Source: Octopus vulgaris (taxonomy: Eukaryota). Taken from it: DNA of 64,000 nucleotides. Shown here one piece after another: positions 3,436-56,274 of the stretch (the first letter of the stretch is position 1; each line of letters begins with the position of its first letter). The notes beneath the pieces were generated by a model. The model was given only the letters and a program-made list of their open reading frames with translations. It had not been told where the DNA came from and did not search any database. The DNA lies in assembly GCA_951406725.2 (NCBI GenBank), contig OX597820.1, positions 110,980,001-111,044,000 on the forward strand. Reading direction: 5' to 3'. The position numbers were made by a program, and so were the translations under genes.

Positions 3436-4822
3436 AAAAAGAAGTGGTGTAGTTCTGATGGACGCAGAATGCTATAAATATCTAGTATTATCCATGCTAA
3501 AAAACGGTGACTTCCACGAAAAAGTTGTGAACTATAAACAACAAAATCAATGAAAAATCTTGCATCCTTAATACGTCTACATGGAAAAAGCCTGACAGAA
3601 AAAAGAAACAGACTACATCACGAATTTCAAATATAAACCTAGTCTTTTTTACGGCCTACCTAAAATACACAAGAGCAAGATAATTAATAAAGCCTGCAAA
3701 CAATCACCAGACAAATACATAAATACGCAAGCGCCAGAAAACTTAACGTTAAGGCCCATTATAGCTGGCCCAGCCTGTGAAACCCACCGCCTAAGCAATT
3801 TTCCAGACATCCTACTGAAACCTTAGCTGAAATACATCAAAAGTTTCATTAGAGACGATTTAGACATGCTAGAGCACATACCAAAAACAATTAGTGAAGT
3901 GGCATTATTAGTTTCCTTCGATGTTGTTAATCTTTACACCAACATTCCACATGACTATGGAATAAAAGCAATCAAAGCCTGCTTATAAAAGTACCCTGAA
4001 GTACTCCTGGAACGCATAAATCAGGTCTTTATAATTGAATCTTTAAAATCTATGCTTCAGAATAATTATTTCCTATTTGATGACACCTACTATCGTCATA
4101 AACGCGGAATTGCTATGGGAACGAACGCAGCCCTTGTTCTTGCGAATCTGATAATGGGTTATTTTGAATCCACCATAAATGAAGTGCCATTTCAAAAATA
4201 TGGTTATCTATTTCACCATTACATAAGAGAAAACTGGAAAAGATACCTGGATGACTGTTTTATCATTTGGAAGGAGACCATTGATAAACTTTTGAACTTC
4301 AAATCAACATTAAATGATATAAACAGTGACATTCGATTTACAATGGAATATAGCAAAGAACAGCTCCCATTTTTGGATGTTATGATAAAAAAGGCAACAA
4401 CCAAATTATAATTGACATCTATCATAAACCAACGGACTCGAAACAATATCTCCTTTTTTTGAGCACATGCCACCAGAAACACATCAAAACAAATCCCTTT
4501 AATTTAGCAAAAAAGGATTTGCACAATAGTGTCTCATAGAACTACTCGGGACCTTCGTCTTCAAGACCTCAAAACAACAGTAACGGAAAGACAATACCCA
4601 CCCTCACTTATAGACGATGGAATTAAGCGTGCCAAGAAATTAGACATAAAAACACTAAGGATAACAAAACATAACACCACACCTCATCTCAAAACACTAC
4701 TGTATATTTTAACCCACAACCCTAGAAACAATGTGGCATAAAACACTATTGTGCAAAATCTTCCATTACTAACTAGAGACCCAAAAATGGACAACATCCT
4801 GAAATCGCATAAACTCATTAAA
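3436..4822 (+). pseudogene. Penelope-like element reverse transcriptase, frameshifted and 3'-truncated
   Basis: PLE RT motifs in order: SGVVLMD, FYGLPKIHKS, RPIIAGPACETHRLS, LVSFDVVNLYTNIPH, GIAMGT, WKRYLDDCF, LPFLDV, then thumb region RLQDLK...YPP...THNP. Stops and frameshifts are present. Confidence 0.93.
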
Positions 4823-4993
4823 TGAGAGGGTTGTGTGTGGAGATGTATGGTAAGGCTTTTGGTTGTAAGTTTTTCTTTGATTTGGGATGTCTCAGTTCCT
4901 TGATGTTAAGTTGAAGGGCACGTTGAATGCACTTGTCAATAAGTGAAGGTGGATAGTTCCTGGTGATTAGGGTATCTTTTAGTTCTTGTAGTC

Positions 4994-5764
4994 GTGTGTC
5001 TACAAGAACTACAAGAACTAAAAGATACCCTAATCACCAGGAACTATCCACCTTCACTTATTGACAAGTGCATTCAACGTGCCCTTCAACTTAACATCAA
5101 GGAACTGAGACATCCCAAATCAAAGAAAAACTTACAACCAAAAGCCTTACCATACATCTCCACACACAACCCTCTCAATAACGAAGCCTTCGACACCATC
5201 CTCCACAACATACCCCTCCTAAAAAAAGACCACAGAATGAACGCAATCCTCCAAACACACACGATCATAAAAAGCAAAAGACAGCCTAGATCCATGAAAA
5301 GTCTCCTTACACAAGCCCGAATTCACTCCTCAACACAGAAGCCGACAGTAAAAAAATGTGGAAGACCCAATTGCGGGATATGCGACTATCTAATTGAGGG
5401 ATCAGAGTTCTCCTTCAAGCAGGGACAACGGTTTACAGTGAAAAGCAACTTCACATGTGCTTCGGAGAACCTAATATACTCACTAACCTGCTCCGGGTGT
5501 CAAGAGCAGTACATAGGCCAAACAAAAAATGGTTTGCGTAAACGAATGGCCCTGCACAGATCCCAGATAAAAATTCCCCAAAACAGAAAAATAGCTTTTA
5601 GCCAACACATAGATACTTGCGCCAACAAAATAACACCAAACTTCAGAATTTTCCCCCTCTACCAATTTAGGGACGATACAACCTCGAGACAACGAATAAG
5701 TAAAGAAAATCTCTTTATTACAAAATACAAGCCACTTCTAAACGGGTCTACGACAAACAATTAA
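4994..5764 (+). CDS. PLE RT-thumb/linker plus GIY-YIG endonuclease (uninterrupted 256 codons, no native start)
   Basis: KKCGRPNCGIC linker cysteines, NLIYSLTCSGCQEQYIGQT (GIY-YIG), LRKRMALH, SKENLFI, PLLN. Confidence 0.9.
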   Translation: MCLQELQELKDTLITRNYPPSLIDKCIQRALQLNIKELRHPKSKKNLQPKALPYISTHNPLNNEAFDTILHNIPLLKKDHRMNAILQTHTIIKSKRQPRSMKSLLTQARIHSSTQKPTVKKCGRPNCGICDYLIEGSEFSFKQGQRFTVKSNFTCASENLIYSLTCSGCQEQYIGQTKNGLRKRMALHRSQIKIPQNRKIAFSQHIDTCANKITPNFRIFPLYQFRDDTTSRQRISKENLFITKYKPLLNGSTTNN

Positions 5765-6514
5765 TATACCTCAACTTTAGAATAAAAGAAAAAAATATAT
5801 ATACACACACAAATATTACACTCCATAGAATCCATTACTAATCAGCCCCTTCATAGCTATACTTACACCCATTCATATTCCCCCTTCTCTGTTTTTTTTT
5901 CTTCTTCTTCTTCCTCTTCTTCTTCATCATCATCATTATCATCATCATCGTCGTCATCATCATCACCACCATCATCACCACCATCTTCTCCTTCTCCTCC
6001 TCCTTCTTCTTCTTCTTCTTCATCATCATCATTATCATCATCATCGTCGTCATAATCATCACCACCACCACCATCATCGTCATCTTCTCCTTCTCCTTCT
6101 TCTTCTTCTTCTTCTTCTTCTTCTTCTTCTTCTTCTTCTTCTTCTTCTTCTTCTTCTACTTCTCCACCCCCTACCCCTTAACTTTGTCACTAATGTTTTT
6201 TAGTATAACACCTACGCTAATTCTATAAACAAGCCTGTCAATATAAATATTCTCCTGAATTGAACTGAGACTGCCAGCCGCCACTGACCATTCAAAATAC
6301 GACCATCAGGGCACTCCCAGATTCTCCCATCCCCCTTTCCCCACCAGCCTTCTTCCTCTACTACCCTTCCAAGAACTCACAACGACCTCCGACACACAAG
6401 TGCAAACAAGGGAGTCAGAGAAAGGCAGAATGCCACTTAAATCTGAACACTACTATAGAAATATTCTTTTAAAAAAACTTTTCTTCTAATTTTTCTAAAT
6501 TTAATTATTTAATC

Positions 6515-6560
6515 GTTACAGTTGAAAAGGTCTCAAAATGACCGAAACCGGTACTGAAAT
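6515..6560 (+). ncRNA. Minimal type I hammerhead ribozyme, U3-A8 core variant
   Basis: Stem I TTACAG/CTGAAA (one mismatch), core TTGAAAA, stem II GGTC-TCAAAAT-GACC, GAA, palindromic stem III ACCGGT, cleavage triplet GUA. Confidence 0.75.
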
Positions 6561-7221
6561 GTTCACTATAAAATTATTTTAGCATTTTCTATTTTTGACT
6601 TGTTTTTTAATATATATATATATATATACATGATATAGTGTATATTTAAACACATAAGGAATCCACTTATAGGGATTCTACACGCTAGAAAGAACAGCTA
6701 GGTTCTATAACCACAAAAATTGGGGATAAAATTCGACAGGAATAAATTTGGAAATGAAAAACATTTACCATCTAGTTTCCTGGACCAATTGGTTTCTAAT
6801 TGGAGATCTTGGGTTTTATCCCTGTACTGCTTAAGAAAAACATTTGTTTTGGTGAACTCTCTTCTGAAGACACCAAAAATCTCCAGTGTTATTAAATCCA
6901 AGCTGATTAGGTGTCCTTGATAGATGACAATCAATCGCGATGCTTAACTCATTCTAACAGCTTACATGAATTACCTGTTAATGCATACAAAACCCACTAG
7001 TTCACTGCGTGATATCCCACTTGATTGTTCTTGAACGTTGAGATTTGATGCAACGGGTGCTTTACCAACAGTATTGCTGGACTTTGCCTGAAAACACACA
7101 TGCGCACATGCGCATACATGCTAAAAACATAAAATCGATTTCACACATATATACATCTATAAACAAATGGACGTGTATATATATATATATGGGGGGGGGT
7201 CTAAAACTGCAAGGGATATTA

Positions 7222-8398
7222 ATGTAACTCATAATTTCTTTGTAGATGACCTCAAGATTTATGCTAAAGATGTTAGCACTGCCAAAAAACAACTGGAATT
7301 AATATCAACATCTTCAGTTGACATAGGAATGGAATTTGGCCAGAAGAAATGTGCATATTGAATTGTTGAACGGGGAAATCAGTGCCCTAGACATAAAACC
7401 TGTGCGTCAATGGTCTCACTATTTCTCCTGTCCTACACAAAGAATGCTATCAGTACCTTGGTATTGATGAAAATATATCATACTAAAGTACTGTAAATAA
7501 AAGTAAAGTGACCCTAGAATATTACATCAGACTAAGAAAAATATGGCAGCCTGAACTCTCTTCTTACAACAAGACAATGTTCCACGTGGCATTTACAGTA
7601 CCTGATTCCAACATTTGGGATACTTGACTGATCTGTAGAAGAAATTCACTCCATAGACAATAAAATCTGCAAGATTCTAACATCAACTGGAAATCTCTAT
7701 AAAAATAGTGATGTGGACAAGCTTTACTTAAGAAGAAACAAAGGCGGCAGGATCTTAAGATCGGAGCAGACAGCCTTTGAATGCCGTATAGTCTCTCCCA
7801 GACAGCAAAAACAATATACAATACCATTTGAAAAAAAGACTGTCTTGGAATAAATATAGAGAATCACGCTCTTCTTGAATGCGTTCGCAAATACCAGCAC
7901 GAGGAATACTGGTGGAACATTCCCATTAAAACACTTGTTAAGTGTAAGCATAATATGTTGGATATCGTTGTTTAGGACAGACAAAAAGAAAGTATCATAG
8001 AGCTGAGCTGTCCTGGTGATGTGAATATCTCTTTGAAAATCAAAAAGAAGAAAAAGAAGATAACTATAGGCAATTCCTTCGAAAACCCAGCTTCTACATC
8101 TAAATAACAAATTTACACTTATACCGATAATAATTGGTACACTTGGCTTTGTAAGTAAATGTCTAACTCAGTCTGGATAAGCTTGGACTTTCAGAAAAAA
8201 GAAATCAACCAACTGACCCACAAATTACAAATACAATCTGTAAGAAGAACAGTAAAACTATGCAAGACTTCTCAGGTTTAAAATGTGACATTGTTTTCGT
8301 TATCTACATTCCACTACATTCCAAAGATGGCGGTTTGTATCTTTGTTAGAAATCGGCTCCTTCTTCAGAGGAAGAATTTAAATAATTAAATACAGAAG
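7222..8398 (+). mobile_element. R4/Dong-like (RLE-type) non-LTR retrotransposon remnant, 5'-truncated and degraded
   Basis: HNFFVDDLKIYAKD, IGMEFGQKKCA and YQYLGIDEN motifs. Later DIVV...IPIIIGTLG, typical of the restriction-like endonuclease domain. Confidence 0.75.

Positions 8399-40572: not shown

Positions 40573-40616
<44 letters not shown>
40240..40616. repeat. Compound (TA)n/(CA)n microsatellite
   Basis: Directly visible. It accounts for the YI-repeat N-terminus of ORF 40218-41381. Confidence 0.97.
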
Positions 40617-40618
<2 letters not shown>

Positions 40619-41381
40619 AGAAATACGCCTTCAAGACCTCAAAAAAACACTATTACAACGTCAATATCCCTCCACCCTTATAGAGTATGGAATAAAACGC
40701 GCCAAAGAACTAGACAACACTACACTGAAAACCACCCAACCTAACACCACACACAACCTCAAAATACTTCCATACATTTCCACCCACAACCCCAAAAATA
40801 TCGAAGCATACACCACAATCATACAAAACCTCAGTCTACTGTCAACAGACCCAAAAATGAAAAACATTATAAATACACACAAAATCCTCAAATGTAAAAG
40901 GCAACACAAATCTTTAAAAAAACTCTTGACAAATGCCAAACTTCACACACCACATCCACCCCCAACAGTAAAAAAATGTGCACGCTCAAACTGTGGTACC
41001 TGCCCCTTTCTACTTGAAGGCTCTGAATTTACCTTCAAACAAGGTACGAAGTTTAAAATCAAGACTAACTTCTCCTGTTCCTCCGAGAACCTTATCTACG
41101 TTCTCACATGCGCTGGTTGCCAACATAATTATGTTGGACAAACGAGTCTCCCGTTACGTAAACGAGTAACGGTGCATAAAGAACAAATAAATCTCCCGGA
41201 ATACCGACAAATTCCACTGAGTGACCACTTAGACTCATGTGCTAAAGACTTAAACCCCAAATTCTATATATTCCCCTTCTACCAATGTAAAGACGGGATC
41301 ACCACACAGGAGAGAATTAACAAGGAGAATCTCTTTATTGAAAAATTCCAAACACAACTTAATATGCAAACTCCTCGTTGA
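40617..41381 (+). CDS. PLE thumb/linker plus GIY-YIG endonuclease (uninterrupted)
   Basis: [48 protein letters not shown]. Colinear with 4994-5764. Confidence 0.9.
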
Positions 41382-42013
41382 TCAAACTTCCTTTTTCTAC
41401 CTCACTCTTCATGGATGGACAAACACAAATATATAAAGATACCATGCATTCATCACTTCAAGCTAAAACTTATATTCTTTAAATATCATTTTTACTATTG
41501 TTGTTATCACTATCATTTTTATTATAAATGAGATGACAATTTGAAATGCAATTGTCTATGCAGATGTATATAATTAGAAAATAATATAAATAAAGTGTTA
41601 AAATCTGAAAGTTAAGTTAACAAGAAATTATATATAAAAAAGATAACGCAAATGAAGCTAAAATGATAATTTTATAATTTGGGTTTTACCATATTATTGA
41701 AGAACTCAAAAGAGTTGTCTCCCCTTACTCACAACACAGGAACTGAAGAACCACAATTAATACTACTTCCTGTCCTGCCAACATGCTGAATTAAACCACA
41801 CAACACATGCTCTTAATCCCTTTGGATCTTAATACCTCAAGGTAATTTTTTCGTGAACAATCATAAAACTCAAGATACACAACGAACTCACAATGTATCG
41901 GAGCACTTATCTTTTAATTTTTGTACATTTTTATCATTATTCTTTTGCAAAAAACAATGCAATTTTCTTTTTTTCCCCTTTCTAATTTCTAAAAAAACTT
42001 TTTAAAACATAAA

Positions 42014-42054
42014 TATTCTTGACAAGTCATACAATGACGAAAACCGGTTGAATA
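42014..42054 (+). ncRNA. Minimal HHR-like motif, U3-A8 core variant, with a 1-nt irregularity
   Basis: TATTC-TTGACAA-GTCAT(ACA)ATGAC-GAAA-ACCGGT-T-GAATA. It has either an extra A after GAA or no cleavage-site nucleotide. Confidence 0.65.
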
Positions 42055-42191
42055 AATATATATTTATATATTTTATCAATTTCTCATTTTATTAAAATTT
42101 TCTTTCATTTGAGCATTCTGCATTTTTAAAAAAATTTTTCCTTACTTATCATTTCTCCACGTGCGGTCAACACAACCCCACCATTTATTGA

Positions 42192-42275
<84 letters not shown>

Positions 42276-42329: not shown

Positions 42330-43025
42330 GTTGAACTGTATTCATAAGGCACATATTGCCATCTATCGTAACGCCCATTTTCCTTACAATTAAAATTGTT
42401 AAAAAGTATTTAAATATTGCATAATATAATTTTTAAAATTTATTTAAAATATATAAATACAGAAACTTGTATAGATAATAATAGAGAAAAGTATTGGACG
42501 AAAATTATTAAACATTTACAGGACTTCAGTATGTACAATGTTTTTAATTTTTCCTTTGGAGCATATGCGAAGAGTTTCTGTGGGCTTCCTACTCTGGAAC
42601 AACCTACATACAATTGACTATGTAAGAAACAGTCCTCTTCTAGATGGAGACTGACAACCTGCAATATTTGACCTTAGGACTTGTTAATGGTCATTGCGTA
42701 ACTGACTCTCACTGGTAACTGCAATCGTTTGAAACGAAAAGGGACATCTGTTGGCATAACGGTATTCTAAGTATAAATGCGATGTCTCCCTTACCACATC
42801 CAGTGAGAATTTTTGCTTCGATAAGGCGAGGCTGTAGTTCAGTCACAACTGTGCGTGTACCATTGCACAATCTTAGCTGATCCAGGTTTATGAAAAGCAT
42901 GATGACTGCATCCTTCTTCAATCCAAGGTTGTGTGACGGCATACCGGACGGTTCCAGACTGTTGAGGAAATCTGTAGGATAATGAACAGTATCATCCTCG
43001 TCAACTTTGTCGAGAGATTTGTAGA
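42330..43025 (-). mobile_element. Helitron PIF1-like helicase C-terminal fragment
   Basis: YPTDFLNSLEPSGMPSHNL, RLCNGTR, IAFILRIP, RLQLPVRVSYAMTINKS, FLHSQLYVGCSRV. Confidence 0.9.
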
Positions 43026-43364
43026 TGTGGCTACTTCCATTCTCCCTCTGTCTCGTTTGTTTTTTCTCCGTATTTTTTCTCTTCAGAGAAAAGGAGGAAG
43101 AGGTAGTGACAGAGAAGACACATATACAACCAGAAGGTGAGAAAAAACACATGAGAGACACACAGAAAGGAGGTAACAAAGAAAAAAGTGAGATACTGTA
43201 CCTCTACGTTCTCTCTATCTGTATGTCCCTCTCCATATCTATGTCTCTCTCACTGTCTATTTAGTGTTTACAGCGGTCAACGAAGAAACAAACTTTGCTT
43301 TTTAGAAGGATATATGTTATAAGGATAATATATACATACACAGAGAGATAGAGAGAGAGAGAGG

Positions 43365-54541: not shown

Positions 54542-56274
54542 TGAATAGATGTGGATAAATATCCAGGTTATGGCTAACCGCATCGAGTTGTAAGAAACAT
54601 AGGATTACTTAAGCAGCCCCGCTGGATTTCATCCGATGGCTACATCTTGGGTGCGCTTCGCTGGATTATAAATATTTTACCGAGTGTACGAGATATCCAA
54701 GTCAATCACAATGAATATGGAGATTAGTACATCTGCATATTTTTCTACCGTTAATTATTGAGAATATTTGATTTACACATGCGAGACTCTATCGTATCTT
54801 CAGTTACTATACAGAACAGCCACCACTCCTCCATCGAGGTATTTTTCTTCAACCATAATGTTCATATTATAAACAAAATATTTACGTACAGAGATCTTTA
54901 TAAAATATTAAAACATTTTTAGCTTTCACGAGGATATGTTTGCTATGAATATCAGTTCGATCATTCAATCTGTATTGGTTGTGCTTACAGTCCATTGTTG
55001 ATAGGTTTTATTCTTTGCAACCGTTAGCGAAGGTGGGGGGAGACAAACGAGTGGTTTAAGACTCCGCTCACATAAAAACGATGAAATGCTTATCATGCAA
55101 ATAACCTCAACTTGTTTGCGGTGGCAGCCATGGATCTGAAAATAGCGGCCTGATAGCAGACGAGCGCTCGACATCTGAAAACTACCCGTCGCCCCACTTT
55201 TTTTTCATTATGCTATGTGTAATATGAATAACAATCACTAAAAAGAAAAGAAAAACGGATGATACATTGTCACATGGCAAGTAGCAGAATTCTTCTTAAA
55301 CATAAAATAAAATTGTAAAAGTTGGAGCTGAAGTTATATTTACTTCATTTACATAAAACATCATTGACATTTTTTGATTAGAAAAACTCATTTAGATAAT
55401 GAATGTTCTCCTCATTAAGGGTGTAATTATAATTATTTAAAACATCTTGGTTTGTTACATCAATTATGCTAGCACCTAGCTCACCGTTTTAATTCATGGG
55501 ATTGTAGCAATTAAGGTAAAAGCGCCTATTTAACCCTCGGTCAATCTCGATTGAATAAACTGTCAATCAAAGATGTTACAGCCATTAGTAGCCATTATTT
55601 TTACAGCTACATCATCGAATTCCTTCCTTCTTTTTAAGACATTAGAGCGTGATTTGGATGTTATTTCTTTCAAATTTGCTTTGAAATGTTTGGTAGAATT
55701 CGCAGGTAATAGCACGTATTATTTTACAGGGATCACGATGCGAACGATTATACCTCGATCCCTGCATACCCTGTCTGGAAGAGATCAACCCGTGCAATGA
55801 AGCTTGACCCAGAATTGAAAAACACCGACTCCTTGATCACAAGTTGAATGAAAGTCACCAACATGAACAACCTGCAACTCCTTGCTGACATTGCCTCTAC
55901 TGATATTAGACAGGGAGTGGCCAATTGAGTCGAGATAACAAAAGTTATAAGTGATGAGCGCCACATCCTCCTTAAACGTTAAATTCCTGCCCAATAACTG
56001 AAGTCAATAAGCTTCCTCAACCATGCCCAGTCTGTGACAATATCTCAGAAGAAACCAGACTTGGGCTCTGGATGGAAAAGCTTAAAACCGACTCTTTTTC
56101 CATTGACCTGAGAATCCACCAACCCCTGCTAAAGGCCTCCCCACTGGCTTAGAAACAGTATAAGTTCAGTGGAAGCACCATAAGTTCTCAAGCGACCGAG
56201 AAGGAGAACGTGAGGATCAAAAGTTGCTTTGGTCAGAGAGGAACTACAAGACTGGCCAAGCCACCTGTGAATGT

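What the first reader, a model, noticed from the sequence alone, without database searches (positions are those of the whole stretch)
6515..6560. PLE hammerhead with a compensatory U3-A8 catalytic-core pair, seen in two diverged elements
Seen: here the core reads TTGAAAA, and at 42014-42054 it reads TTGACAA, instead of CTGANGA. Both change C3 to U and G8 to A together. Their stems I and II differ in sequence yet still pair, and both use the palindromic stem III ACCGGT. Established: positions 3 and 8 form a Watson-Crick pair in the active HHR, and minimal PLE HHRs with palindromic stem III are thought to act as dimers. Inference: a PLE lineage has fixed a non-canonical core that CUGANGA-based searches would miss. 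The 42-kb copy has a 1-nt irregularity and may be dead.
Basis: partly seen in the sequence, partly recalled or inferred. Interest (0 to 1): 0.75.

Follow-up and report, generated by a model that had tools for sequence, protein, structure and literature searches.

The report
Known hammerhead variant in Penelope-like retrotransposons
This is a real motif of a self-cutting RNA near the tail of an abundant jumping gene, carried with the same swapped core letter pair in about two thousand near-identical genomic copies; that swap is already published, and these versions are predicted to cut only weakly, if at all.

Summary
Observation confirmed. 6514-6561 is a type I minimal hammerhead with U3-A8 (U6522, A6527), 760 nt behind the GIY-YIG ORF of a 5'-truncated Penelope-like element (PLE). 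The core is fixed: 1,966 genomic copies of this family, 100 of 100 listed with U3-A8. Genome-wide the U3-A8/ACCGGT pattern gives 11,150 hits (control 103) against 328 for C3-G8. Stem I covaries across families, and full-length copies carry two same-strand hammerheads about 4.4 kb apart, as the dimer model needs. It is not new: U3-A8 cores were reported in nature in 2011 and in Schistosoma PLEs in 2014 (~1,300 hits), and this scan noted them before elsewhere in this genome. The 42-kb irregularity is not decay: 98 of 100 listed family copies share it (593 in all), and sister families have one more base at the cut site. That family, a U3.G8 family with a similar loss, and a predicted U3-A17 trap in the 6.5-kb family suggest weak or dispensable cutting. 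No cleavage was tested.

The parts
6514..6561 (+). Type I minimal hammerhead, family 1: U3-A8 core, 4-bp stem II, palindromic stem III ACCGGT, predicted cut after A6553
   Evidence: 1,966 family copies, 100 of 100 listed U3-A8
5008..6610 (+). 5'-truncated family 1 PLE copy: end of RT thumb, CxxxxCxxC linker, GIY-YIG endonuclease (open frame to 5764), microsatellite-containing 3' UTR, hammerhead, end 57 nt after the cut site, then (TA)n
   Evidence: GIY-YIG E 2e-4; 95.9% to full-length copy L129 over 1,642 nt; 3' ends
4823..4992 (-). Inverted 170-nt copy of the element's truncated 5' end (arms 4823-4992 and 5008-5177)
   Evidence: (I1, 100% complementary)
3438..4824 (+). Older, broken PLE reverse-transcriptase remnant that the family 1 copy abuts
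   Evidence: 70% to family 2 copy L135, 65% to L129; RT frame
42014..42054 (+). Type I minimal hammerhead, family 2: U3-A8 core; one base shorter at the cut site than sister families
40616..42193 (+). 5'-truncated family 2 PLE copy (GIY-YIG frame to 41381, 3' UTR, hammerhead, tail) between two (TA)n tracts
   Evidence: 97.7% to L135 over 40618-42144

Best explanation
6514-6561 is the U3-A8 hammerhead motif in the terminal repeat of a young, abundant Penelope-like retrotransposon family; it likely acts as a weak dimeric ribozyme, in which the two copies at the ends of a full-length transcript would pair through their ACCGGT palindromes and cut after A17. Shown: the motif, its fixation, its covarying stems, its place in the element and the two-copy layout of full elements. 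Inferred: U3-A8 replaces C3-G8 as the core pair, inherited from an ancestor of a group of Neptune-like families whose RT-endonuclease proteins are now only 56-58% alike; cutting would release a unit-length RNA, possibly circularised, that serves as template. Activity is probably low: U3 can pair with A17 and cover the cut site, and related families that lost a base there still spread. This particular copy is a 5'-truncated monomer with no same-family partner in the window and is probably inert.
For: Fixation: 100 of 100 listed among 1,966; family 2, 35 of 35 motifs in 29 of 30 loci. Pattern counts with ACCGGT: U3-A8 11,150, C3-G8 328, C3.A8 321, U3.G8 392 (controls 103, 40, 52, 56). Covariation on 12 family representatives: 90.4% of cells paired vs 58.8% shuffled, all 6 stem I pairs change on both sides, pair 3-8 UA 7 / CG 4 / 1 misaligned row, slid controls 29-43%; family-level stem I test 58 of 90 paired vs 37.6 +/- 5.2, 4 of 20,000 shuffles as high. 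Host element: RVT_1 plus C-terminal GIY-YIG in L123. Two same-strand motifs in L129 (4,429 nt apart), L159 (4,386), L169, L221, L222 (about 4,615). Hammerhead fold costs +1.1 kcal/mol as monomer, -15.1 as linked dimer vs -8.2 for two open monomers. U3-A8 ribozymes are active in vitro per PMC3088659 (passage); S. mansoni minimal hammerheads cleave weakly as dimers, not as monomers (PMC4209133; that test used family Sm1, not shown to be U3-A8).
Against: No cleavage data. In the copies inspected, ends run 57 or about 97 nt past the cut site and 5' repeats start upstream of the core, so no DNA end marks the cut. Minimum-energy folds of monomer and dimer pair U3 with A17. Two recently spread families are one base short at the cut site: family 2 (593 copies) and a U3.G8 family (107 copies, 99 of 100 listed short). 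Near-identity of copies reflects recent amplification, not selection on each copy. Stem I of family 1 has only 3 uninterrupted pairs next to the core.
Confidence: 0.62

Rival explanations
1. The motif descends from an active hammerhead but cutting is now dispensable for these elements: the fold is kept as a structural signal (dimerisation, protein binding, RNA end protection) or is drifting, and the template is an uncut read-through RNA.
For: Families short by one base at the cut site amplified to 593 and 107 copies, with long open RT-EN frames in some copies; U3-A17 pairing predicted; A17 in 25 of 56 distinct U3 motifs, so no avoidance; no copy end at the cut among those inspected; Naiads spread without canonical hammerheads (PMC8557442 passages).
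Against: Core positions U4, G5, A6, A9, GAAA and the palindrome stay fixed across families whose proteins are 56-58% alike while stems covary; a pure dimer signal would not need the whole catalytic core. Family 2 can be re-registered with a bulged A and U17, like the active U13a insertion in PMC3088659.
Confidence: 0.3
2. The two sites are independently decayed canonical hammerheads, or chance matches in AT-rich DNA.
For: AT-rich window, weak Rfam score, unremarkable folding z-scores; one U3-A8 retrozyme monomer (L165) could have arisen partly by CpG decay.
Against: 100 of 100 listed family copies are U3-A8; 11,150 vs 103 control hits; single-change states are about 30-fold rarer.
Confidence: 0.02

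Closest known systems
U3-A8 minimal hammerheads of Cercyon PLEs, Schistosoma mansoni (Cervera & de la Pena 2014, PMC4209133; read: parts 1-2 of 4 of the main text, parts 1-2 of 3 of the supplement)
   Same: Type I minimal hammerhead in PLE terminal repeats, U3-A8 covariation, missed by the canonical descriptor, mostly single dispersed copies, inverted pairs nearby, predicted dimer. Their Fig. S3 lists two UUGANAA families in S. mansoni and a U3.G8 motif in a Saccoglossus PLE.
   Different: Other host and other PLE clade (CxxxxCxxC linker here); 6-nt palindrome ACCGGT rather than a 2-nt one; no bulged base before stem II in the two window families; about ten times more copies (11,150 vs about 1,300).
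Natural U3-A8 core variants (Perreault et al. 2011, PMC3088659; passages read)
   Same: C3-G8 covaries to U3-A8 in several natural hammerheads; said to be active in vitro, citing Przybilski & Hammann 2007 (not held; not read).
   Different: Scattered examples, not tied to PLE families in the passages read.
Small dimer-cleaving PLE hammerheads (Lunse, Weinberg, Breaker, RNA Biol 14:1499; not held, seen only as a reference and through the review PMC6765202, passages)
   Same: Palindromic very short stem III, type I, cleavage as dimers, low rates.
   Different: Could not check whether it lists these families or U3-A8 cores.
Neptune/Nematis-type EN+ PLEs (Craig et al. 2021, PMC8557442; passages read)
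   Same: RT, CX2-5CxxC linker, C-terminal GIY-YIG, (TA)n targets, inverted 5'-truncated copies, 30-40 nt optional tail, ORF1 separable by a frameshift.
   Different: Neptune versus Nematis not resolved here; no reference clade sequences were in my tree.

Membership tests
Type I hammerhead ribozyme | Core U4 G5 A6 N7, A9, G12 A13 A14, A15.1-U16.1, H17 around three stems | tested here: met
   Family 1. Family 2 meets it only with a bulged A or G17
Type I hammerhead ribozyme | Watson-Crick pair between positions 3 and 8 | tested here: met
   U-A; covaries with C-G across families; single-change states about 30-fold rarer
Type I hammerhead ribozyme | Stems I and II supported by covariation | tested here: met
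   Stem I: (12-15 related, hand-picked families; not tree-corrected). Stem II pairs in each family but was not scored across families because lengths differ
Type I hammerhead ribozyme | Self-cleavage after position 17 | not testable with these tools
   Only assembled contigs are held; no raw reads; no bench data
PLE minimal hammerhead (dimer type) | Short palindromic stem III, unstable as monomer | tested here: met
   ACCGGT duplex -8.3 kcal/mol; monomer hammerhead fold +1.1
PLE minimal hammerhead (dimer type) | One copy in each terminal repeat of a full element | tested here: met
   L129, L159, L169, L221, L222; the two window copies are truncated and have one each
EN+ Penelope-like element | RT followed by C-terminal GIY-YIG endonuclease | tested here: met
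Neptune clade | CX2-5CxxC linker between RT and EN; (TA)n targeting | tested here: met
   Linker; (TA)n flanks. The linker is shared with Nematis
Neptune clade | Placement with reference Neptune RTs in a tree | not tested
   No named PLE references were available; the tree holds unnamed homologues only
Non-LTR retrozyme | Short (150-450 nt) non-coding tandem unit | tested here: not met
   The unit is 4.4-4.6 kb and codes for RT-EN

The most novel reading that the evidence does not exclude
Penelope-like elements do not need their ribozyme to cut: in this genome the dominant U3-A8 lineage has locked or lost the cut site three times over (U3-A17 pairing in family 1, a base lost in family 2 and in a U3.G8 family) and still spread to hundreds or thousands of copies, and the all-adenine core may be further silenced by host A-to-I editing. 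These natural families would make the open question of what PLE hammerheads are for directly testable.
Probability: 0.2. Interest if true: 0.6.

Novelty: new member of a known kind. Interest (0 to 1): 0.24.

Why it matters
As it stands it is an annotation point: with the patterns tried, U3-A8 motifs outnumber C3-G8 motifs roughly 3.7 to 1 in this genome (about 18,300 vs 5,000 after subtracting controls), so canonical descriptors undercount hammerheads here. The variant itself is published. The more useful part is the natural series of young families with intact, trapped and shortened cut sites, which would let one ask whether PLE hammerheads must cleave for the element to move.

Tried and rejected
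Decay of single copies: rejected. Rfam: no family at gathering score at either site. Expression: no RNA holder listed as such; only contigs, RNA status guessed, so nothing on ends, strand or level. Genomic footprint of cleavage: none in the roughly 45 loci looked at, but these were chosen by containing the whole motif, so copies starting at the cut could not appear. A shared 5' inversion among family copies: an artefact of the window's own inverted repeat. C3.A8 as a real PLE family: the commonest such hit has no stem I and looks like a chance match in another repeat (L167, L168). A 3' splice acceptor at 6521 (TTACAG): no joint to it in one contig lay, and other families lack the AG; unresolved. 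Link of U3-A8 motifs to Naiads: no evidence; several U3-A8 families showed no RT or EN in the 1.5-5 kb fetched. Tree: only the quick IQ-TREE finished; the five U3 rows fall in one 9-row clade (SH-aLRT 92) with four database proteins of unknown hammerhead state, so a single origin is plausible, not shown. Literature searches: searches found no paper on these families or on editing of PLE hammerheads; Lunse et al. and Przybilski & Hammann 2007 were not held and could already cover them. The A-to-G lead remains unchecked against DNA of the same individual.

Full report
Observation. Both motifs are present as described. Site 1: stem I 6514-6521 with 6554-6561, core TTGAAAA 6522-6528, stem II 6529-32 with 6540-43, GAAA 6544-47, palindrome ACCGGT 6547-52, A17 at 6553. 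Site 2: stem I 42014-18 with 42050-54, core TTGACAA 42019-25, stem II 42026-29 with 42035-38, then GAAAACCGGTT, one base out of register. Rfam HH9 matches site 1 far below its gathering score (19.7 of 52 bits) and misses site 2. They are the only two descriptor hits in the window, with none in 200 resampled windows.

Host elements. Each motif lies 640-760 nt behind a GIY-YIG frame preceded by a CxxxxCxxC linker. Site 1 belongs to a 5'-truncated copy (5008-6610) capped by a perfect 170-nt inversion, next to an older PLE remnant and ending in (TA)n. Site 2 belongs to a truncated copy between two (TA)n tracts. The genome (G000, 2.8 Gb, 227 contigs; other notes of this scan call it octopus, which I did not test) holds full-length relatives: L129 has a 144-nt terminal repeat with a hammerhead, an ORF1 of 411 aa, an overlapping RT-EN frame and a second hammerhead 4,429 nt after the first; L123 gives RVT_1 and GIY-YIG. 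The two window families' RT-EN proteins are 56.7% identical. Linker, (TA)n targets, inverted copies and optional tail fit Neptune/Nematis-type PLEs as described in PMC8557442 (passages).

Fixation. With positions 3 and 8 left free, family 1 has 1,966 exact copies and 100 of the 100 listed are U3-A8. For family 2, 35 of 35 motifs found in 29 of 30 loci are U3-A8. Loose patterns ending in GAAACCGGT give U3-A8 11,150, C3-G8 328, C3.A8 321 and U3.G8 392, against reversed-pattern controls of 103, 40, 52 and 56. With other 4-nt stem III inserts the counts are U3-A8 9,418 (control 2,140) and C3-G8 5,743 (control 1,046). These patterns do not enforce stems and leave out 2-nt inserts, so the 3.7:1 net ratio is approximate.

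Structure. On 12 family representatives (8 U3-A8, 4 C3-G8; I left out the three extra-A families and the U3.G8 family of alignment A1 because they are out of register, and one row is misaligned) 90.4% of cells pair against 58.8% in shuffles, all six stem I pairs change on both sides, and slid controls give 29-43%. A separate test on 15 greedy clusters of 56 distinct U3 motifs, out-of-register ones included, gave 58 of 90 paired against 37.6 +/- 5.2. Neither test corrects for relatedness. The hammerhead fold is unfavourable in a monomer (+1.1 kcal/mol) and favourable when two copies pair through ACCGGT (-15.1 against -8.2). Two same-strand copies per element occur in L129, L159, L169, L221 and L222. 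In the dimer each core would use the cut site and 3' stem I strand of its partner, so only same-family pairs should work (inference).

Signs of weak or dispensable activity. (a) Minimum-energy folds pair U3 with A17, the counterpart of the C3-G17 trap discussed in PMC3884650 (introduction and passages); A17 occurs in 25 of 56 distinct U3 motifs. (b) Sister families of family 2 have an 8-nt palindrome plus a base at 17, whereas family 2 is one base shorter; 98 of 100 listed among 593 copies are short. It must either lack position 17, use G17, or bulge an A, as in the U13a insertion listed among active variants in PMC3088659. (c) A U3.G8 family, 96.7% identical in protein to a U3-A8 sister, is also one base short in 99 of 100 listed among 107 copies. 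(d) Copy ends lie 57 or about 97 nt past the cut site, never at it, in the loci inspected; this fits a cut-and-ligated circular template and an uncut read-through RNA equally, and my loci were biased to whole motifs.

Origin. In the quick tree (the careful search did not finish) five U3 rows sit in one 9-row clade of 44 with four database proteins of unknown hammerhead state. Two C3-G8 loci with PLE protein remnants (L209, L210) lack the linker and match the profile only weakly. U3-A8 also occurs in about 360-nt retrozyme-like repeats, beside C3-G8 and C3.A8 versions, so the swap is not confined to one coding lineage. In contigs of four coded runs (organisms B-E) no difference at 6522 or 6527 was among the 40 rows shown; 30 more were not shown.

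What is known. PMC4209133 reports U3-A8 instead of C3-G8 in Schistosoma PLE hammerheads, missed by the first descriptor, about 1,300 hits, and low cleavage of minimal hammerheads as dimers; its supplement shows two such families and a U3.G8 PLE motif in Saccoglossus. PMC3088659 reports natural U3-A8 covariation and prior in vitro activity. Seven searches found no paper on these particular families; two key papers were not held. This scan had already noted U3-A8 motifs elsewhere in this genome with the same verdict, after I had reached it.

Verdict. A real, fixed, covarying PLE hammerhead of a published variant: new member of a known kind, interest 0.24. Weak dimeric cutting is the most likely working (0.62); a non-cutting role or drift is the main rival (0.3).

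Noticed in passing
window 6525-6528, contigs of run X9: Eight contigs of a run guessed to be RNA read G instead of the four adenines after G5, and T>C at 6552 is frequent; this looks like A-to-I hyperediting of the core, plausibly on double-stranded RNA from inverted copies. No matched DNA, so unverified.
   Followed up: no
window 55692-55774, minus strand: HDV-like ribozyme candidate: Rfam CPEB3 model 32.5 bits (gathering 35), E 3.5e-7 in a local search.
   Followed up: partly
L129 (element orientation 4776-4800), L123, L122, L126, L132, L134, L135, L159, L169: ORF1 and the RT-EN frame overlap at a T TTT TTA slippery heptamer kept in three families, pointing to a -1 frameshift; no strong simple hairpin downstream. 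A frameshift after ORF1 is noted for some PLEs in PMC8557442.
   Followed up: partly
L095-L101, L113-L118, L165, L166; G000:C1:8134352-8135463; G000:C4:80857199-80857948: About 360-nt tandem retrozyme-like repeats occur with C3-G8, C3.A8 and U3-A8 cores; L165 is an 86% identical U3-A8 monomer of the C3-G8 unit.
   Followed up: partly
L159 (G000:C1:70848000-70857500): A full-length family 1 element sits 20 nt upstream of stem I of the 5' hammerhead of a full-length U3.G8 element: a mixed tandem of two PLE families.
   Followed up: no
window 6480-6521: A pyrimidine-rich run ending in TTACAG directly before U3 resembles a 3' splice acceptor, as at the Drosophila Penelope hammerhead; no joint seen.
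   Followed up: partly
L225 (G000:C1:94342410-94343255): A head-to-head array of family 2 hammerhead halves fused at the core.
   Followed up: no
window 7190-8280: Broken remnant of another non-LTR retroelement RT frame (read by eye; not searched).
   Followed up: no
window 42709-43203, minus strand: 164-aa frame that resembles a Helitron/PIF1 helicase fragment (recalled resemblance; not searched).
   Followed up: no
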